From: a virus
IMG/VR virus record: IMGVR_UViG_3300010430_000017
Span: 1-64,000 of that record
Reading direction: 5' to 3' (one strand)
DNA: 64,000 bases
The notes beneath the pieces were generated by a model. That model worked only from the letters and a program-made list of their open reading frames with translations, had not been told where the DNA came from and did no database searches. Both the position numbers and the translations under genes were made by a program. How positions within the stretch are numbered: position 1 is the stretch's first letter; each line of letters begins with the position of its first letter. Below are positions 18,339-28,800 of this stretch, one piece after another.

Positions 18339-20891
18339 ATGACTCTATATATTGGGGATTGCGAAACTAACGGGCTTCTGCACGAAGTGACTAAGTTTCA
18401 TTGTATTTGTTTTAGTCCTGTGGGTAATAACAAATTTTACATTTTCTGTGACCTTGAAGATCTTTCTAATTATGATCAAGATCAGTTCAGATCGGAGGAT
18501 GTTGAACCAATCTTTTTCCCGACTAATGATTATCTTAAACTCCTTAACTCCCCAAAAACTACTGGCATTTGTATGCACAATATTTACGGATATGACCTCC
18601 AGGTGTTCGAGAAACTTTCGGGGATTACCTATGATTGGGATAGTATTAATAATAGGAAGGTTAAGATTATTGATAGTCTTGTGATGTCAAGAGTTCTTTG
18701 GCCTGATAGACCCGTGGTGAAAGGAACTAAGTCTCAGCATGGTTTAGAAGCTTTTGGCATTAGGACCGGTATAGCGAAGCCTAAAGTAGAAGATTGGTCC
18801 GATCAATCTTTGGAGGTTTATATAAACAGAGTAATAGAGGATGTAAAGATTAACAAAGCAACTTATTTCATGTTGTTAAAAGAAACAAGAGATGTAGCGT
18901 TTAGTAACGGAGCTAAAAAAGGTTCTTGGACAGAAGCATTACAAATGGGTATGAAGAGTGCCTACCTGATGAGTAAACAAGAGAAAGATGGTGCTGTTTT
19001 TGCGGTGGACGATGCGAAAAGGCTTATCCACAGTATTGACCAACAAATGAAAGAAATCGCCGAAGATGTTGAACCGAAGTTAGGGGAACGTGCTCTGCCT
19101 AAAGCTAAACAACCTAATTTTCCATCACAACCTTGGAAAAAACCCTTTGATTTTAAATCACCCTTCAAAGCAAAAGGAGGGCTAAAAAAACCTGTTAATG
19201 AATATTTGAAAACTACTGGCATACCGGCGCACCAAAGGGAGGACTATATCTGTTCTATGCTGGAGAAAGAAGTGGTCGATGGTCACACCTTAATCCACAA
19301 CTACATAGAAGACGAGTTACCTAAACATCCTACTCTTCTCTCACAAGCTTCAATTAATTACTGCCTTAAGTTTGGTATTAATGAACTCCAAGAACAGTTC
19401 AAGGAGATAAAAACGATATGGGGTCTAAAAATCCAAGGATACTCTCCAGATGAAGAAAGAAAACTCACTGAACCTATGAGGTTAGCCAACCAAAATGATA
19501 TAAAGAATTTTTTTATATCCGAACTCGGGTGGAAACCACAACTATGGAGAACAAAAAACTTACTTGTGGATTTAAAGACAAAGCAAAACTTCCCAAAAGA
19601 TGAGCAAGAAAAAAAGATTCAGAAGTATATAAAAGATATTCAAGAAAGCCCCTATAAATCACTGGTCCTGAAAGAACTTGGATACAAGAAAGACCCCGAC
19701 TTTAAATCCAAAGCCTTTTATAATAGGGTGAAAAGGAACGGGAGGGCTGTTCCTTCTTCACCTCAACTGAAAAATATACGAGGGGATCTTTGTCCAAGTC
19801 TTGAAAAATTAGATGCTGGTATGGCAAAAAAGATAGTGTTGTGGTTAAGTTTAAGAAACAGAAGGACAACAATAAAATCTTTTGATAAAAACACTGGCTG
19901 GCTTAATCACCGTAGATTACAGGTAGATGGTAGGCTGCCAGGGGCAAGTACGGGGTTGACTAACACCAGGAGACAGAAACATCATATTATATGCAACATT
20001 CCTGCTGCATCTGATTCTGTTGTTCTTGGTAAAGAAGTCAGGGATCTTTTTATAAGTCCAAAAAATTACTGTTGTGTTGGGGCGGATGCATCTGGGATTG
20101 AAGGTAGGGCTATGGCAGAAGCTGCTTGGAATTTTGATAATGGAGCTTATGCAGAGATTATTTTAAACGGTGATGTTCACAATGAAAATGCTAAATCCTT
20201 TTCTAAAGCTATCGGGAGAGAGGTCGGCAGGGGAGAAGGAAAATCTCCTTTCTACGCAGGAATTTATGGATGTCAAGCAAAGAAGCAAGCAACTTTGTTA
20301 GGTGTTGAAGAGAGGTTAGGTGATGCTATTAATAAGGCTTTGTGGGAAGTTGCATGGGGATTAGAGAAGTGTAAAAATGCACTTGGTGTTTATTGGGAAA
20401 ATACTGGTAAAAAATATATAATGGCTATAGATGGATCAAAAATATTTACCCGTAGTAAGCACAGCCTCCTCAATGCATATTTACAAAGTGCTGATTCTAT
20501 TCTAATGGATTGGGCTTGTTGTTGGATTCATGATAAAATTAAAGAGGAAAAATTAGATGCTCAACGGTGGATTTATTACCATGACGAGATAAATCATTAT
20601 CATAACTTGAAAGAGGTTCAATACGAGTTATTTCCATTAGATAAGAAGCCAGAGGAGTACAGAGATAAAATTCAATACTCAAAACCTAAACTTTTTAGAG
20701 AAGGAGAGATCCTACACTTTGGTTTACCTAAAGGGGAAGATCCTCTCCCCACGGATCAATGGATACAACACTATTCAAGGGTTGGTGAAATCTGTGTTGA
20801 AGGTATTAAGAATGCTGGGAAGCACTACGGTTTTAGAGTCCCTTTAGATGGGCAATATATTTTAGGGGGGTCATGGGGAAAAACTCACTGA
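18339..20891 (+). CDS. Family A DNA polymerase (T7-like) with 3'-5' exonuclease
   Basis: Exo motifs DCETNG, HNIYGYD and EDV; motif A DASGIE; motif B RGEGKSPFYAGIYG (Tyr at the 762-equivalent site); motif C HDE. Confidence 0.95.
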   Translation: MTLYIGDCETNGLLHEVTKFHCICFSPVGNNKFYIFCDLEDLSNYDQDQFRSEDVEPIFFPTNDYLKLLNSPKTTGICMHNIYGYDLQVFEKLSGITYDWDSINNRKVKIIDSLVMSRVLWPDRPVVKGTKSQHGLEAFGIRTGIAKPKVEDWSDQSLEVYINRVIEDVKINKATYFMLLKETRDVAFSNGAKKGSWTEALQMGMKSAYLMSKQEKDGAVFAVDDAKRLIHSIDQQMKEIAEDVEPKLGERALPKAKQPNFPSQPWKKPFDFKSPFKAKGGLKKPVNEYLKTTGIPAHQREDYICSMLEKEVVDGHTLIHNYIEDELPKHPTLLSQASINYCLKFGINELQEQFKEIKTIWGLKIQGYSPDEERKLTEPMRLANQNDIKNFFISELGWKPQLWRTKNLLVDLKTKQNFPKDEQEKKIQKYIKDIQESPYKSLVLKELGYKKDPDFKSKAFYNRVKRNGRAVPSSPQLKNIRGDLCPSLEKLDAGMAKKIVLWLSLRNRRTTIKSFDKNTGWLNHRRLQVDGRLPGASTGLTNTRRQKHHIICNIPAASDSVVLGKEVRDLFISPKNYCCVGADASGIEGRAMAEAAWNFDNGAYAEIILNGDVHNENAKSFSKAIGREVGRGEGKSPFYAGIYGCQAKKQATLLGVEERLGDAINKALWEVAWGLEKCKNALGVYWENTGKKYIMAIDGSKIFTRSKHSLLNAYLQSADSILMDWACCWIHDKIKEEKLDAQRWIYYHDEINHYHNLKEVQYELFPLDKKPEEYRDKIQYSKPKLFREGEILHFGLPKGEDPLPTDQWIQHYSRVGEICVEGIKNAGKHYGFRVPLDGQYILGGSWGKTH

Positions 20892-20916: not shown

Positions 20917-21735
20917 ATGAGAGTAGACTTAAGTATTGTTGGGAAGAAGTTCAACAGGTTGAGAGTATTAGAATTTATAGGACAAGACAAGAATAAAAAA
21001 TCTCTATTTAAATGTTTATGTGACTGTGGAAATGAGGGTATTTTTAGAGGTACAGAAGTAAAAAATGGGCATACCAAATCTTGTGGTTGTTTTCAAAAAG
21101 AAAGTAGATTTAAACACGGCTATAATAATACCTCAATTTACCAAGCCTATTGTGACATGAAAGATAGGTGCTATAATCTCAAGAACCCTTATTATAAGGA
21201 CTATGGGGAAAGAAATATAAAAGTCTGTGAAGATTGGTTAGATAAGGAAACGGGTTTTATTAGGTTTTTAAATTCTGTAGGCGAAAAACCTGACGGAAAA
21301 TATTCATTGGGCCGTATAGACAACGATTTAGGTTATTTTCCCGGTAATTGTAGATGGGAAACTGATACTGAGCAGAATCGGAATCTTAGGAGTAACCGTT
21401 TGCTTGAGTATAAAGGAGAGACTAAGTGTGTTGCGGAATGGACTGAGATTTCTGGCCTGAATAAAAGTACCTTTAATCATAGACTACGGGCCGGGTGGAG
21501 TATGGAGAAAATTATGACAACACCAGTACATAGGCCCGAAATATATAGTTACAAAGATATAGAAGATACCTTACCTAATTTAGCAAAGATGTTTAATCTA
21601 AGTGTAGCTGTTTTCAGAAAAAGGCTAAGAAGAGGTTGGGATATAGAAGAAGCATTAGAAACACCGCAATTATACAAAAGAATAACAAAACCCTTGACAA
21701 ACACAATACCAAATGATATTATCCACAAAGATTAA
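20917..21735 (+). CDS. Free-standing HNH-type homing endonuclease
   Basis: CLCDCG..KSCGC, MKDRCY..YG.R.IKVC..W, RIDND.GY.PGNCRW; repeated RLR.GW helix-turn-helix units. Confidence 0.85.
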   Translation: MRVDLSIVGKKFNRLRVLEFIGQDKNKKSLFKCLCDCGNEGIFRGTEVKNGHTKSCGCFQKESRFKHGYNNTSIYQAYCDMKDRCYNLKNPYYKDYGERNIKVCEDWLDKETGFIRFLNSVGEKPDGKYSLGRIDNDLGYFPGNCRWETDTEQNRNLRSNRLLEYKGETKCVAEWTEISGLNKSTFNHRLRAGWSMEKIMTTPVHRPEIYSYKDIEDTLPNLAKMFNLSVAVFRKRLRRGWDIEEALETPQLYKRITKPLTNTIPNDIIHKD

Positions 21736-23438: not shown

Positions 23439-23615
23439 ATGAGATACAAAGTAGAGCACAACAGGTGTAGGTGCCACCCGGAGACTTGTAACTGCGATGA
23501 TTATATGATTACTAAAGATGGTGAAAAATGGGTAACTATCTTTGACAAAGGTAAGGCTTTTGAGGTTATGACTGCGATGAATTTTTATGACCTGAAAGTT
23601 TTACTTGATGAGTGA
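23439..23615 (+). CDS. Small Cys-rich protein (58 aa; not in the ORF track)
   Basis: MRYKVEHNRCRCHPETCNCDDY; overlaps the primase start. Confidence 0.55.
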   Translation: MRYKVEHNRCRCHPETCNCDDYMITKDGEKWVTIFDKGKAFEVMTAMNFYDLKVLLDE

Positions 23616-25329
23616 TTTTTGGGAGAATGAAAGGAGATCTTGGAAAGTGACTAAGAAGAAATATGATTCTGAATATAAACCAAAAGAGACAGTGAAAGAT
23701 ATTCTCCAATACCCACAGAAAGCCATCCCGGAAAGAGGGCTTAAAGAAAGTACAATAAAGCGATTTGGGGTAAGAACTAAACTTAATACCCTAACACAAG
23801 AAATTGATGCGGTATATTTTCCATACAAAGACGAAAGCGGTAAAGTCACTGGTTATAAGAAAAGAGATTTGACTCTCCATAAGAAAGAGAAGTATCATTT
23901 CTCAGTCATTGGTTACGTTGGGGTTGAATCTCAGTTATTTGGTCAAGATAAGTGTAGATCAAAAGCTAAGAAGCTTTATATCACTGAAGGTGAATACGAC
24001 CAAATGTCATGCTACCAAGCATACATGGAGAATGTTGGTAAGGATTATAAACAGTACGGGGTCAATGTCGTGAGTATTGGTTGCGGGACCCCAAACGCTG
24101 TTGATCACATAACAGAAAATGAACATTTTATATCCGGGTTTGAGCAGGTAGTTTTGTGCTTTGATAATGATTCTTTGAGTGAGAGAGATCTGAAAAAGAA
24201 GAATCCGGGAATGAAAGGTGCAGAAGCAACTAATGCAGTGGGGGCATTCCTTAGAGATCATACTGTCCTTAAGATTAAATGGGAGAAATGCAATAAACTC
24301 CCTAATGGAAAATTCCCCAATGATCCTTCTGACTATCTAAAACCAGAAAATAATAAAGCGGATTGGCTCTACAGGGTAATGCTCTTCAATACAGAGGAGT
24401 ACAGAAATAAGAAGATTGTTGGCATACATGATGTGTTTGAAAAAGGTGAAGTCCTGGAGCCTCTTGATAAAGGTGTGTACCTTGAGTCTTTTCCTAAATT
24501 AATGGATCTATTGCTGGGGATCAGGAAGAAAGAAGATACTTTACTTTTAGCCCCTTCAGGTACCGGAAAAACAAGTGTTTGTTGTGCATTAGCTGCTGAT
24601 ATGGCCGAAGGCGGGGAGAAGGTAGGTGGGATACTATTAGAAGAAGGTATGAAGAGGACAGGACAAAGGTTTATTGCACAAAGACTTAGAATTCATCCTA
24701 ATAAGTTTCAATTCGGGGAAAGACTTGGGAAGACTGATGACGAGGTGAGTAATGCGGAGGATTGGGTAGCAGAAAAGTATTTGTTTCTCGATCACCACGG
24801 GGCAATTTCAATAAACGAGCTTGTGGATTTATGCAAATTGTTCATTTATAAGTACAATAGAACCTTTATTATCTTCGATCATATTTCTCTTGCTTGTGCT
24901 TCCGATGGTACTATTGAAGAAAGAGCAGAACTCACAGTAGCTATGAATGCTATCACTGCTTTGTGCGAGAGTTGTGATGTTCATATTGTTGTAGTAGCGC
25001 ATATTAATCGTAATGCTACTACTGTATCGAGTAAAGAGAGAGAGATCACGGAGCCTAAGTGGAAGAGAACTTTTATCACTGATGGTAAAGGTACTCAGGC
25101 ATTAGAAGCTCTTGCTCACAATATTATCACTATTGACAAAGAGAGACTGCCGGATGGGACCAGAGGAAGAATTAGATTATTTCTTGGAAAGAACAGGGGC
25201 GCTGATACACTGGGCTTTGCTGATATCACACGCATGCATCCTGATACAGGGGTGTTCTACGATGCTTCTGATGAGAGATGGACACCTAATGGTTGGACTA
25301 CTGATGAAGATAATACTACAGGTTACTAA
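23605..25329 (+). CDS. Primase-helicase (T7 gp4-like)
   Basis: TOPRIM motifs LFGQ, ITEGEYD and CFDND; helicase motifs APSGTGKT, FDHIS, VAHI and KNR. Confidence 0.93.
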   Translation: MMSDFWENERRSWKVTKKKYDSEYKPKETVKDILQYPQKAIPERGLKESTIKRFGVRTKLNTLTQEIDAVYFPYKDESGKVTGYKKRDLTLHKKEKYHFSVIGYVGVESQLFGQDKCRSKAKKLYITEGEYDQMSCYQAYMENVGKDYKQYGVNVVSIGCGTPNAVDHITENEHFISGFEQVVLCFDNDSLSERDLKKKNPGMKGAEATNAVGAFLRDHTVLKIKWEKCNKLPNGKFPNDPSDYLKPENNKADWLYRVMLFNTEEYRNKKIVGIHDVFEKGEVLEPLDKGVYLESFPKLMDLLLGIRKKEDTLLLAPSGTGKTSVCCALAADMAEGGEKVGGILLEEGMKRTGQRFIAQRLRIHPNKFQFGERLGKTDDEVSNAEDWVAEKYLFLDHHGAISINELVDLCKLFIYKYNRTFIIFDHISLACASDGTIEERAELTVAMNAITALCESCDVHIVVVAHINRNATTVSSKEREITEPKWKRTFITDGKGTQALEALAHNIITIDKERLPDGTRGRIRLFLGKNRGADTLGFADITRMHPDTGVFYDASDERWTPNGWTTDEDNTTGY

Positions 25330-27309: not shown

Positions 27310-27603
27310 ATGAAGGACCTAACAAGAAATGAAGAGCATTACTATCTGTTCCAGAAAGCTGATCAATGGTGCGGTAGAAGGACAGGAAGAGGGTTCAGGC
27401 TTAATAGCAACCTAAAAGAGTCCTGGTTCTATCCAGAAAAGGAATTCAGTATCTGGTGCTATGATAAAACTATAGATGAAGGATTCCATATTTATACAAA
27501 ACAGGATAAGTTCTTGACATATGATGAAATGCTTGTTATAAAGAAAAAGAACTTGGATGAGGACTATAAAGAAGAGATAAAGGGGTTGAGTAATGAGAAT
27601 TAA
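27310..27603 (+). CDS. Hypothetical protein
   Basis: RBS AAGGAG. Confidence 0.55.
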   Translation: MKDLTRNEEHYYLFQKADQWCGRRTGRGFRLNSNLKESWFYPEKEFSIWCYDKTIDEGFHIYTKQDKFLTYDEMLVIKKKNLDEDYKEEIKGLSNEN

Positions 27604-28603
27604 AAGAAATATCGAGGTGCCCACAGGAAATATTTGTATTGCAAAAGGAGAGAAAGGTAAAGATTTAGAATTTCTTTCTATTGGAGATTATGGTCGGACT
27701 AAAAATGTCAAAGCTGACTTCCTTGGACTCACGGAAGATATTAATGGTGTTCCTCATGGGGAAGTAATGTCTTTGGAGGAGAAATGGGTTTTAACTATTT
27801 CATCGCAATATGGTTGCAGTATGGGATGTAAGTTCTGTGATGTCCCTAAAGTCGGCCCTGGAGTTAATGCAACACTCAAGGACTTAACTGATCAAATCGT
27901 AACAGGGATAAATCTACACCCTGAAGTTGCAGCTACGAAAAGACTTAATGTACATTATGCAAGAATGGGAGAGCCTACCTGGAATAATAACGTACTTATC
28001 CATGCCAGAGGTTTATTAAAAGAGATCAGACCTTACGTTGGTAGAAGTCTTTGTCATCCTGTTGTATCAACAATGCTTCCTAAGAACAATAAACATTTAA
28101 TGCATTTCCTTCAGGAATGGTGTGAAATTAAGAACTATACCTTCAGAGGTTGTGCTGGACTACAATTTAGTGTAAATTCAACATCTAACGTACAAAGACT
28201 TAATATGTTTTCTGGGAGTTCCTTGTCACTCACTGAGATATCAGAGATAGGTAAGAATCTTCCTATGCCTGTTGGCAGAAAATATGCGTTAAATTTTGCT
28301 CTTGCTGATGACTATGAAGTTAACGCAAGAAAGTTAATAAAGCTGTTTCATCCCTCTAAATTCATGGTGAAAATTACACCCCTTCATAAGACAAACTCCT
28401 GTGTAGATAATAATATTAAAACCTCCGGCGGTTACGAAGAATTTACACCTTATAAAGAAATAGAAAAAGACCTTAAAGATGTTGGATTGGATGTTTTAGT
28501 ATTCATACCTTCTTATGAAGAAGATCTTGGAAGGATAACCTGCGGGAATGCTATTCTCTCTGGTACACTCCCGGAGGTTGATTATAAGGAGATTAACTCA
28601 TGA
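27593..28603 (+). CDS. RlmN/Cfr-like radical SAM enzyme
   Basis: TISSQYGCSMGCKFC (CxxxCxxC), RMGEP, VST and C-terminal ITCGNA (RlmN AACGQL). Confidence 0.85.
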   Translation: MRIKRNIEVPTGNICIAKGEKGKDLEFLSIGDYGRTKNVKADFLGLTEDINGVPHGEVMSLEEKWVLTISSQYGCSMGCKFCDVPKVGPGVNATLKDLTDQIVTGINLHPEVAATKRLNVHYARMGEPTWNNNVLIHARGLLKEIRPYVGRSLCHPVVSTMLPKNNKHLMHFLQEWCEIKNYTFRGCAGLQFSVNSTSNVQRLNMFSGSSLSLTEISEIGKNLPMPVGRKYALNFALADDYEVNARKLIKLFHPSKFMVKITPLHKTNSCVDNNIKTSGGYEEFTPYKEIEKDLKDVGLDVLVFIPSYEEDLGRITCGNAILSGTLPEVDYKEINS

Positions 28604-28800
28604 AAACACGTAAAGTACTACTACCAATAGACGTTCCAGATTCTAACTACTGTTGGAACCAGAAACAAAATATAAGATGCAAATATTTCCTATATTACAA
28701 ATGCGTACTGGGATTTGAGATGGAATACGATAAAGATAATATTTGTTGTTTAAAGGACCAAGCTTGCAGGAATTTACTTTGGCTTGAGAATATAAGATAA
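28600..28800 (+). CDS. Cys-rich hypothetical protein
   Basis: ATGA overlap; RBS AAGGAG. Confidence 0.5.
   Translation: MKTRKVLLPIDVPDSNYCWNQKQNIRCKYFLYYKCVLGFEMEYDKDNICCLKDQACRNLLWLENIR

What the first reader, a model, noticed from the sequence alone, without database searches (positions are those of the whole stretch)
27593..28603. Phage RlmN/Cfr homologue keeps the methyl-carrier Cys but lacks the resolving Cys
Seen: WVLTISSQYGCSMGCKFC aligns by eye with RlmN ATLCVSSQVGCALECKFC, putting Thr (codon 27794) at the Cys118 position. MGEP and the C-terminal ITCGNA (Cys355 equivalent, codon 28541) are kept. The N-terminus is shorter than in RlmN. Known: RlmN C118A/S mutants cannot resolve the intermediate and stay covalently cross-linked to tRNA or rRNA. 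Inference: this enzyme either has different chemistry or substrate, or acts as a natural covalent RNA trap for host shut-off. A link to the tRNA-like RNA at 58 kb is speculative but testable, since RlmN acts on A37 of the anticodon loop.
Basis: partly seen in the sequence, partly recalled or inferred. Interest (0 to 1): 0.75.

Follow-up and report, generated by a model that had tools for sequence, protein, structure and literature searches.

The report
Phage one-cysteine RlmN-like radical SAM enzyme
This phage gene encodes a radical-SAM enzyme built on the core of the RNA methylase RlmN, but like its whole large, mostly viral family it lacks RlmN's second catalytic cysteine and RNA-docking domain, so it is probably an unstudied enzyme acting on a small molecule, not a trap for host RNA.

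Summary
ORF 27593-28603 (+, 336 aa) is an RlmN/Cfr-core radical SAM protein. Profile-profile alignment puts Thr68 at the RlmN C118 position and Cys317 at the C355 position. The AlphaFold model matches RlmN far better than any other solved radical SAM enzyme.

The missing cysteine is not a phage quirk. It is Cys in 0 of 94 aligned relatives and 0 of 280 held family proteins, while the C-terminal Cys is kept in 88 of 94. The protein also lacks RlmN residues 1-79, the helical RNA-docking domain.

The family is large and mostly viral (PHROG 24834, function unknown). In phages the gene stands alone. Its nearest cellular relatives are fused to QueT-type vitamin-importer domains and to an MTA/SAH nucleosidase. 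A sister clade sits in a conserved operon with an amidohydrolase and a flavoprotein.

This points to a multi-turnover enzyme acting on a small molecule, with the substrate unknown. A covalent RNA trap is unlikely. I could not confirm links to queuine lyase or to NAD salvage for this clade.

A tRNA-like gene at 58 kb does exist, but nothing ties it to this enzyme. The scan has met this family before on other DNA (several earlier notes). I found no paper on it.

The parts
27593..28603 (+). Gene for the 336-aa RlmN-core radical SAM protein (PHROG 24834)
   Evidence: ORF. phrog_24834 at E 3.6e-156, function unknown. AlphaFold2 mean pLDDT 92.9. RlmN Z 24-26 and Cfr Z 18.9, against Z 14.1 or less for other radical SAM folds.
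27815..27838 (+). Codons for C75-x3-C79-x2-C82, the radical SAM [4Fe-4S] cluster motif
   Evidence: Sequence. C75 in 94/94, C79 in 93/94 and C82 in 94/94 of alignment A3.
27794..27796 (+). Thr68 codon (ACT), at the position of the RlmN resolving Cys (C118)
   Evidence: hhalign. Cys in 0/94 at this column (Thr in 69). Cys in 0/280 held proteins. Thr in 66/69 of the query's own clade.
28541..28543 (+). Cys317 codon (TGC) in RITCGNA, at the position of the RlmN methyl-carrier Cys (C355)
   Evidence: hhalign. Cys in 88/94. Kept in 7 of 8 importer-fused relatives.
27962..27976 (+). RMGEP (residues 124-128), counterpart of the RlmN MGMGEP SAM-binding motif
   Evidence: G126 and P128 invariant; R124, M125 and E127 at 90% or more in A3. 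Aligned to GMGEP of RlmN.
27683..27766 (+). Residues 31-58: an insertion specific to the query's clade, between the N-terminal beta strands and the core, with lower model confidence
   Evidence: Absent from sister-clade rows in alignment A1. pLDDT blocks of 77-83 here.
27310..27603 (+). Upstream 97-aa ORF overlapping the start by 11 nt; no known family and not conserved beside relatives
   Evidence: Shared with 0 of 80 related viral loci.
28600..28800 (+). Downstream 66-aa Cys-rich ORF overlapping the stop (ATGA); not conserved beside relatives
   Evidence: Shared with 0 of 80 related viral loci.

Best explanation
The gene encodes a free-standing radical SAM enzyme that descends from the RlmN/Cfr core. 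It keeps the [4Fe-4S]/SAM site and the mobile C-terminal loop cysteine (Cys317). It has neither the second (resolving) cysteine nor the N-terminal RNA-docking domain. I infer that it works catalytically on a diffusible small molecule rather than on rRNA or tRNA. The substrate is possibly a purine-like or vitamin-like metabolite, or a nucleotide. I also infer that Cys317 takes a direct part in the chemistry, either as a methyl carrier whose adduct is resolved in a way that does not need C118, or as a hydrogen-atom/thiyl relay. The phage carries it as a solitary auxiliary gene that needs only host SAM, a host reductant and a host metabolite. Shown here: homology, fold, which residues are kept or lost, the family's spread, the fusions and the operons. 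Inferred: the class of substrate, the role of Cys317 and the benefit to the phage.
For: Homology to RlmN/Cfr is real but distant. NCBIfam RlmN scores 33.8 bits against a cut-off of 290, and the Cfr models score 29-32 against 468-550. hhalign gives E 1e-26 over residues 60-323. A PDB profile search finds only RlmN/Cfr (E 4e-18 to 6e-16). Structural alignment gives Z 24-26 against 14.1 or less for other folds, and model residue 1 equals RlmN residue 80. The one-Cys pattern holds across the family. The family is large: 6514 hits at E 0.001 or better among 8000 scored candidates and 597 representatives at the 50% identity level. It is mostly viral: the nearest Atlas clusters are 73-92% viral and 523 IMG/VR stretches encode relatives. 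In a tree of 43 representatives the query shares a 17-row clade (SH-aLRT 97) with four proteins fused to ECF S-component/QueT domains, two of which also carry a C-terminal nucleosidase. One of those nucleosidase domains passes the MTA/SAH nucleosidase cut-off at 223.9 bits against 169. Four further fused proteins carry precomputed QueT hits. The sister clade forms an operon of isochorismatase-like hydrolase, TrxR-like flavoprotein and radical SAM, with 75 and 77 of 100 loci across bacteria and archaea holding the two partners. The flavoprotein lacks CxxC in 86 of 93 sequences, which suggests an electron donor rather than a disulfide reductase. Five of five genomes carrying that operon also have a true RlmN, so the family does not replace RlmN. 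In phages the gene has no fixed neighbour: the best is 23 of 81 viral loci and 11 or fewer of 80 metagenome loci.
Against: No substrate is identified and nothing here tests activity. The importer fusions are in a nested cellular sub-branch about 40% identical to the query, so function may differ. Some contexts look RNA-related. A Thg1-like gene lies just upstream in about 10 of 80 metagenome loci. tRNA genes with long anticodon-loop insertions lie 2.5 kb upstream in 3 of 20 scanned loci and elsewhere in this window. Strong conservation of the C355-type loop is what one would expect if RlmN-like methyl-carrier chemistry on an sp2 carbon were kept, and that could still be on a nucleic acid. Other phage subfamilies keep both cysteines yet are also short (314-316 aa), so a short N-terminus alone does not exclude RNA. 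I could not measure the geometry of Cys317 or Thr68 in the model.
Confidence: 0.45

Rival explanations
1. It is still a nucleic-acid methyl synthase acting on tRNA, rRNA or phage/host DNA. It uses methyl-Cys317 as RlmN does, with another base (water, Thr68-assisted, or a substrate group) doing the job of C118, and it turns over normally.
For: The C355-type loop and the SAM motifs are conserved. RlmN is by far the closest fold. The gene lies in the DNA replication block (PolA 18339-20891, primase-helicase 23605-25329). Some lineages have Thg1-like or tRNA genes nearby.
Against: The N-terminal RNA-docking domain is absent. C118 is described as indispensable for resolving the cross-link in both RlmN and Cfr (passages of PMC9692996). 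Nested relatives are fused to membrane importer domains. No RNA-related neighbour is conserved across lineages. The protein is not markedly basic (pI 8.0, 40 K+R against 38 D+E).
Confidence: 0.2
2. One reading: a natural suicide enzyme that forms a permanent Cys317-CH2-adenine cross-link with host tRNA or rRNA, shutting the host down.
For: RlmN C118A is trapped cross-linked to tRNA (titles of PDB 5HR6 and 5HR7; PMC9692996 passages). This protein has Thr at that position.
Against: The Cys is missing from the whole family, including cellular operon members found in 78 of 339 genomes of one class. Relatives are fused to an importer and to the nucleosidase that clears 5'-deoxyadenosine and SAH, which only makes sense for many turnovers. 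There is no RNA-docking domain. It matches no known defence or toxin family in PADLOC. A stoichiometric trap would have to outnumber ribosomes or tRNAs.
Confidence: 0.05
3. A specific version of the small-molecule reading. It acts on a queuosine-type 7-deazapurine (queuine, preQ1 or preQ0) imported by QueT-type transporters, for example as a non-orthologous route to preQ1 that feeds the host tRNA-guanine transglycosylase.
For: The N-terminal domains of fused relatives hit Pfam QueT: P0143 at 37.0 bits and P0155 at 39.8 bits against a cut-off of 33.7, plus precomputed PF06177 on P0271, P0272, P0273 and P0276. An indirect queuine-to-preQ1 route using a radical SAM enzyme (QueL) with QueT and QueK exists in C. 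difficile (passages). Streptococci have QueK and QueT but no QueL, and the authors raise the possibility of a non-orthologous enzyme (passage of PMC12632869). Many relatives come from gut and rumen metagenomes.
Against: In agreement, no solved radical SAM chain other than RlmN/Cfr resembles this family. P0144 and P0183 fall below the QueT cut-off, and P0183 matches riboflavin-type S components equally well. No TGT/DpdA was found in this phage or in 4 others. No QueT lies beside 160 stand-alone loci. No preQ1 riboswitch was found in 20 viral loci.
Confidence: 0.15
4. A specific version suggested by earlier notes of this scan: it performs an undescribed step on nicotinamide, NAD or a related pyridine.
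For: The sister-clade partner belongs to the isochorismatase/nicotinamidase superfamily. A NAPRTase-family gene is present in 5 of 9 other phage records that carry some RlmN-core relative, against 2010 of 50,697 phage records overall. Earlier notes report such enzymes inside NAD-salvage operons (not independent evidence).
Against: The 5 positive phages carry other subfamilies (two-Cys or split/short forms), and their NAPRTase genes lie 12-30 kb from the radical SAM gene. This phage and its closest cultured relative have none. The hydrolase matches no nicotinamidase equivalog; the best is 25.7 bits against 174, in 1 of 3 tested. No NAMPT lies within 8 kb of 160 loci of the query's clade. No NAD gene is among the conserved neighbours in 100 cellular loci.
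Confidence: 0.1

Closest known systems
RlmN (dual-specificity 23S rRNA A2503 / tRNA A37 C2 methyl synthase; TIGR00048; PDB 3RFA, 4PL1, 5HR7, 6FZ6)
   Same: Same radical SAM core fold (Z 24-26, rmsd 2.6-2.9 A over 254-267 residues). Same CX3CX2C motif, GEP motif and C-terminal loop Cys in a CG(N/Q) motif at the C355 position.
   Different: No Cys at the C118 position (Thr). No residues 1-79, the helical N-terminal domain. A 28-residue clade-specific insertion. Scores 33.8 bits against an equivalog cut-off of 290. Stand-alone phage gene. Relatives are fused to importers and a nucleosidase.
Cfr (23S rRNA A2503 C8 methyl synthase, antibiotic resistance; PDB 9P0P)
   Same: Same class A core and C-terminal Cys. 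It is the best single PDB sequence hit (E 7.7e-5) and scores Z 18.9.
   Different: Same differences as for RlmN. Scores 29-32 bits against cut-offs of 468-550. There is no reason to expect a resistance function.
PHROG 24834 (phage protein family, function unknown)
   Same: Full-length match: E 3.6e-156, residues 1-333 of 336.
   Different: The family has no assigned function, so membership names the protein but does not explain it.
QueL, the radical SAM queuine lyase of Clostridioides difficile (with QueK and QueT; Yuan et al. 2019, seen only as cited in other papers)
   Same: A radical SAM enzyme working with QueT-type importers on an imported small molecule. Relatives of the query are physically fused to QueT-like domains.
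   Different: I could not obtain the QueL sequence. An earlier scan note says it is a different radical SAM family with a solved structure, and no such chain appears among the sequence or fold matches. No TGT or QueT gene accompanies the phage gene.
Sister clade: the operon of isochorismatase-like hydrolase, TrxR-like flavoprotein and one-Cys RlmN-core radical SAM in bacteria and archaea (uncharacterised as far as I could find)
   Same: Same one-Cys RlmN core without the N-terminal domain. 26-30% identical to the query.
   Different: C-terminal motif is SNCGQ. It lacks the 31-58 insertion. It is cellular (78 of 339 genomes of one class). It always has partner genes, which the phage lacks.

Membership tests
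Class A radical SAM methyl synthases (RlmN/Cfr) | Single radical SAM domain with a CX3CX2C cluster motif | tested here: met
   C75, C79 and C82. Conserved in 93-94 of 94.
Class A radical SAM methyl synthases (RlmN/Cfr) | RlmN/Cfr core fold | tested here: met
   The top 11 Foldseek hits are RlmN/Cfr. VIA-align Z is 24-26 for RlmN and 18.9 for Cfr, against 14.1 or less for others.
Class A radical SAM methyl synthases (RlmN/Cfr) | Methyl-carrier Cys on the C-terminal loop (C355 in RlmN, C338 in Cfr) | tested here: met
   Cys317 aligns with the Cys of AACGQL. Cys in 88 of 94. Whether it is actually methylated was not testable.
Class A radical SAM methyl synthases (RlmN/Cfr) | Second conserved (resolving) Cys, C118 in RlmN and C105 in Cfr. 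The class is defined by two conserved cysteines (PMC9692996 passages). | tested here: not met
   Thr68 sits at the aligned position. Cys in 0 of 94 and 0 of 280. There is no other family-wide conserved Cys.
Class A radical SAM methyl synthases (RlmN/Cfr) | N-terminal helical domain that docks RNA | tested here: not met
   Model residue 1 aligns with E. coli RlmN residue 80. hhalign starts at RlmN position 96.
Class A radical SAM methyl synthases (RlmN/Cfr) | Reaches the curated equivalog score | tested here: not met
   TIGR00048 scores 33.8 against 290. The Cfr models score 29.5-32.4 against 468-550.
Class A radical SAM methyl synthases (RlmN/Cfr) | Forms m2A or m8A in rRNA or tRNA | not testable with these tools
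   Needs biochemistry.
PHROG 24834 | Full-length profile match | tested here: met
   E 3.6e-156, residues 1-333 against profile positions 1-333 of 336.
QueL queuine lyase | Sequence or fold homology to the validated enzyme | tested here: inconclusive
The QueL sequence was not obtainable, and the primary paper is not held. Among solved chains only RlmN/Cfr match this family.
QueL queuine lyase | Gene linkage with QueT, QueK, TGT or a preQ1 riboswitch | tested here: not met
   True for fused relatives only. For the phage gene and its stand-alone relatives: no TGT, no QueT, and no preQ1 riboswitch in 20 loci.
Sister-clade operon (hydrolase, flavoprotein, radical SAM) | Adjacent isochorismatase-like and TrxR-like genes | tested here: not met
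   No such genes in the window or within 8 kb of 160 related loci, by BLAST.

The most novel reading that the evidence does not exclude
The one-Cys RlmN-core proteins are a new mechanistic class of radical SAM enzyme, carried by many phages (523 IMG/VR stretches encode relatives). They would use the RlmN methyl-cysteine (or a thiyl relay) on a free purine-like metabolite or nucleotide. The adduct would be resolved without a second cysteine, or the Cys-bearing loop would be left attached; in some phages that loop is a separate 40-93-aa peptide. Phages would use this to make or destroy a modified cofactor, a nucleotide or an immune signal.
Probability: 0.2. Interest if true: 0.8.

Novelty: new variant of a known kind. 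Interest (0 to 1): 0.6.

Why it matters
RlmN and Cfr are the textbook case of methylating an unreactive sp2 carbon through a methyl-cysteine, and by definition they need two cysteines. Here is a very large family on the same scaffold that has dispensed with one of them and with the RNA-docking domain. It counts thousands of proteins and is mostly viral, with a cellular sister clade across bacteria and archaea. Whatever it does, it is either new chemistry on an old scaffold or a new way to finish the old chemistry. It is also one of the commoner unexplained enzymes in gut and environmental phages. The fusions (importer, enzyme, by-product nucleosidase) and the conserved three-gene operon give concrete handles for finding the substrate. 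For annotation, automatic names such as '23S rRNA (adenine2503-C2)-methyltransferase' on these proteins are probably wrong.

Tried and rejected
1. QueL hypothesis. The QueT and nucleosidase fusions first made me read the protein as queuine lyase. I downgraded this for four reasons. The nucleosidase domain is an MTA/SAH nucleosidase. An earlier scan note says QueL is another family with a solved structure. Only RlmN/Cfr appear among solved chains. No TGT, QueT or preQ1 riboswitch accompanies the stand-alone genes. I could not read Yuan et al. 2019 or the 2024 MMBR review (not held). What I say about QueL comes from passages in 10.1101/2023.12.05.570228, PMC11130926, PMC12632869 and PMC7694415. 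A search for '6P78' found nothing relevant. Supplements were not requested.

2. NAD-salvage link from earlier notes. Not reproduced for this clade.

3. Disulfide partner in trans. The TrxR-like operon partner lacks CxxC, so it does not supply the missing thiol.

4. A compensating Cys. C177 is clade-conserved but hydrophobic in the sister clade. C15 and C270 are each Cys in about a third of rows. Distances in the model could not be measured.

5. Conserved partner genes in phages. None found.

6. Genomic context of the fused proteins. No match of this clade (stand-alone or importer-fused) was found in 401 genomes sampled from one phylum, and all 31 family loci examined of the 78 genomes with a hit among 339 genomes of one class belong to the sister clade. 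None of the 80 viral loci listed (of 154 relatives) covers the importer part of the fused query.

7. Defence families. None.

8. Literature. Searches found no paper on a phage one-Cys RlmN-like family. This covers the held library only.
Full report
WHAT IS THERE. The window is the first 64 kb of an 82,544-bp phage genome with direct terminal repeats, rated 100% complete. ORF 27593..28603 (+) encodes 336 aa. It overlaps a 97-aa ORF upstream by 11 nt and a 66-aa Cys-rich ORF downstream by 4 nt (ATGA). It lies in a run of + strand genes behind a family A DNA polymerase (18339-20891), an HNH endonuclease (20917-21735) and a primase-helicase (23605-25329). Pfam sees only a weak Radical_SAM match (17 bits, cut-off 29.5). 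PHROGs gives a full-length match to phrog_24834, function unknown (E 3.6e-156). The closest cultured relative is Bacteroides phage Versailles at 66% identity, annotated only as a radical SAM domain protein.

CHECK OF THE OBSERVATION. Codon 27794 is ACT (Thr68) and codon 28541 is TGC (Cys317). The cluster motif is C75/C79/C82. Pairwise HMMER alignments to solved RlmN and Cfr chains cover only residues 59-140 (E 8e-5 to 9e-4) and put Thr68 where the C118A mutant structures have Ala. To cover the C-terminus I built a 94-sequence family alignment (A3). I also aligned 5 true RlmN proteins taken from genomes where they exceed the TIGR00048 cut-off. hhalign gives probability 99.7 and E 1e-26 over query 60-323 against RlmN 96-338. 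Thr68 falls opposite the Cys seven residues before the cluster, and Cys317 opposite the Cys of AACGQL. A profile search of the PDB finds RlmN and Cfr over nearly the full length (E 4e-18 to 6e-16) and nothing else below E 0.05. The AlphaFold2 model is confident (pLDDT 92.9, pTM 0.91). Foldseek's top 11 chains are RlmN/Cfr. On a second alignment RlmN scores Z 24-26 (rmsd 2.6-2.9 A, 254-267 residues) and Cfr Z 18.9, against Z 14.1 or less for all other radical SAM folds. Model residue 1 corresponds to E. coli RlmN residue 80.

THE LOSS IS FAMILY-WIDE. At the Thr68 column, Cys occurs in 0 of 94 rows (Thr in 69). Cys317 is kept in 88 of 94. The only near-invariant cysteines are C75, C79, C82 and C317. 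Among 280 held proteins with the motif and enough length, the residue seven before the cluster is never Cys (Thr in 245). C177 is Cys in 64 of 69 members of the query's clade. In the sister clade it is Leu, Ile, Met or Val, as expected for a buried helix position rather than a catalytic one. I could not measure distances in the model. A review (passages read) defines class A radical SAM methylases by two conserved cysteines and describes C118 (C105 in Cfr) as indispensable for resolving the cross-link, probably as a general base. By that definition this protein is not a class A member, although it is plainly derived from the same scaffold.

SIZE AND SHAPE OF THE FAMILY. The word-indexed search scored 8000 candidates, and 6514 had E 0.001 or better. 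The best 120 are 67-76% identical, and several carry the automatic name '23S rRNA (adenine2503-C2)-methyltransferase'. The exhaustive search of 50%-identity representatives gives 597 proteins at E 0.001 or better, 297 at 1e-10 and 84 at 1e-30. The nearest ESM Atlas clusters are 73-92% viral. In IMG/VR, 523 stretches encode relatives. A tree of 43 full-length domains (quick IQ-TREE; rows shorter than 80% of the profile were left out) splits in two. A 17-row clade (SH-aLRT 97) holds the query, other ITCGN-type proteins and four fusion proteins. A 26-row clade holds SNCGQ-type proteins.

WHAT THE RELATIVES' ARCHITECTURES SAY.

(a) Fusions in the query's clade. P0143 and P0155 combine an ECF S-component/QueT domain, the radical SAM domain and a PNP_UDP_1 domain. 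P0144 and P0183 combine an S component and the radical SAM domain. QueT scores pass Pfam's cut-off for P0143 and P0155 but not for P0144 or P0183. Four further fused proteins carry precomputed QueT hits. The C-terminal domain of P0155 is an MTA/SAH nucleosidase over its curated cut-off (223.9 against 169), while that of P0143 is below it (81). This enzyme removes 5'-deoxyadenosine and SAH, the by-products of radical SAM and methyl-transfer chemistry. Seven of the 8 fused proteins keep the C-terminal Cys, as LTCG followed by N, K or H.

(b) The sister clade is cellular. In a sample of one class, 78 of 339 genomes have a copy. All 31 family loci I examined there are SNCGQ/M type. In 100 loci from many bacterial and archaeal phyla, an isochorismatase-like cysteine hydrolase lies beside the gene in 75 and a TrxR-like flavoprotein in 77, in the fixed order hydrolase, flavoprotein, radical SAM. 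Fused forms of both pairs exist. The flavoprotein has no CxxC in 86 of 93 sequences, so it looks like an electron donor rather than a disulfide reductase. The hydrolase matches no specific equivalog. No other neighbour is conserved (7 or fewer of 100). The same genomes carry a true RlmN (5 of 5).

(c) In phages the gene travels alone. In 81 loci at 61-73% identity, the commonest neighbouring family occurs in 23, and none of the window's neighbours recurs. In 80 gut/rumen metagenome loci of a second stand-alone group, real neighbours occur in 11 or fewer. Proteins of the query's clade were not found in 401 genomes sampled from one phylum at E 1e-35 or better.

READING. An enzyme that is fused to a membrane uptake domain and to the nucleosidase that clears its by-products, and whose sister clade sits in an operon with a small-molecule amidohydrolase and an electron-donor flavoprotein, is most simply a multi-turnover enzyme of small-molecule metabolism. 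That is my best explanation (0.45). The retained Cys317 loop should take part in catalysis. I cannot name the substrate. Three readings are weaker.

First, 7-deazapurine (queuosine-precursor) metabolism is the only specific lead from my own data, through the QueT-type domains. In addition, no TGT/DpdA, QueT or preQ1 riboswitch accompanies the stand-alone genes.

Second, the NAD-salvage link reported by earlier notes of this scan was not reproduced for this clade. NAPRTase-family genes occur in 5 of 9 other phage records with some RlmN-core relative, against 2010 of 50,697 records overall. But those five carry other subfamilies, the genes lie 12-30 kb apart, and this phage and Versailles have none.

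Third, a nucleic-acid substrate is not excluded (0.2). The methyl-carrier loop is strongly conserved, and some lineages have Thg1-like or tRNA genes nearby.

THE RNA-TRAP IDEA. The known fact behind it is sound. C118A RlmN is crystallised cross-linked to tRNA (entry titles; review passages). As an explanation for this gene it fares badly (0.05). The 'mutation' is shared by thousands of proteins, including cellular operon members. The fusions argue for turnover. The RNA-docking domain is missing. No defence or toxin profile matches.

A 70-84-nt insertion interrupts the anticodon arm. ARAGORN and the default Rfam scan miss it. Nothing links it to the enzyme except presence in the same genome.

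OTHER PHAGE SUBFAMILIES. The more distant tblastn hits are not the same thing. Aeromonas phage Ahp1, Salmonella phage Arash and Vibrio phage 249E41-1 proteins keep both cysteines, with Cys at -7 and GGGCGQ. Moorella phage MTATph1 and Vibrio phage D479 have a truncated core followed by a 40-aa or 93-aa ORF that carries one or two AACGQ(L/M) motifs. Arno162 and P778 have a 291-aa core with no C-terminal Cys. This agrees with earlier notes on two-piece forms.

LIMITS. The primary QueL paper was not readable. The tree is a quick search with SH-aLRT support only. Neighbour clustering used raw ORFs and BLAST-level sensitivity.

VERDICT. This is a new variant of a known kind: a one-cysteine, domain-stripped RlmN-core radical SAM enzyme in a large, mostly viral, uncharacterised family. 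The scan has flagged the same family on other DNA before. Interest 0.6.

Noticed in passing
window 58065-58214 (- strand): tRNA-like gene: Rfam tRNA scores 35.4 bits (gathering 29), with acceptor, D and T arms intact, but a 70-84-nt insertion interrupts the anticodon arm. It is seen only with relaxed filters. ARAGORN and the default whole-window Rfam scan miss it.
   Followed up: partly
L320:35-548, L315:234-549, L319:220-535 (IMG/VR phage contigs): Two or three tandem tRNA genes of 111-115 nt, each with 44-49 nt where the anticodon loop should be. They lie about 2.5 kb upstream of a stand-alone radical SAM gene of this clade. This was seen in 3 of 20 loci scanned, all one lineage. ARAGORN finds none. 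The insertions are too short for group I introns.
   Followed up: partly
L137:4866-5828 (Moorella phage MTATph1); L311:7836-8916 (Vibrio phage D479): Split RlmN-core enzymes. A 274- or 281-aa core lacks the C-terminal Cys loop and is followed by a 40-aa ORF (one AACGQL) or a 93-aa ORF (two AACGQM repeats).
   Followed up: partly
L004:4869-5813, L138:4875-5825, L312:7896-8825 (Vibrio, Aeromonas and Salmonella phages): A separate short (309-316 aa) phage RlmN-like group that keeps both cysteines, with Cys at -7 and GGGCGQ. These may be true class A enzymes without the usual N-terminal domain.
   Followed up: no
L117-L136 and L005-L084 (cellular genomes): A conserved three-gene operon across many bacterial and archaeal phyla: isochorismatase-like cysteine hydrolase, TrxR-like flavoprotein without CxxC, and one-Cys RlmN-core radical SAM. 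The two partners occur in 75 and 77 of 100 loci. I found no description of it.
   Followed up: partly
L273:9-680, L248:5767-7308 and related metagenome loci: In about 10 of 80 gut/rumen loci, a Thg1-like (tRNA-His guanylyltransferase family) gene lies just upstream of the radical SAM gene, and a DUF2828/DUF7788 vWA protein lies 2 kb upstream. This is one lineage, so it may be synteny only.
   Followed up: no
window 28600-28800 (+): A 66-aa Cys-rich ORF whose ATG overlaps the radical SAM stop codon (ATGA). It has no family match and no relative beside 80 related viral loci.
   Followed up: partly
L138:330-995 (Aeromonas phage Ahp1); L311:2675-3577 (Vibrio phage D479): A GTP cyclohydrolase I gene and a 'QueE-like radical SAM' gene are annotated 4-5 kb upstream of the RlmN-core gene in these two large phages. 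No TGT match was sought in these two records.
   Followed up: no
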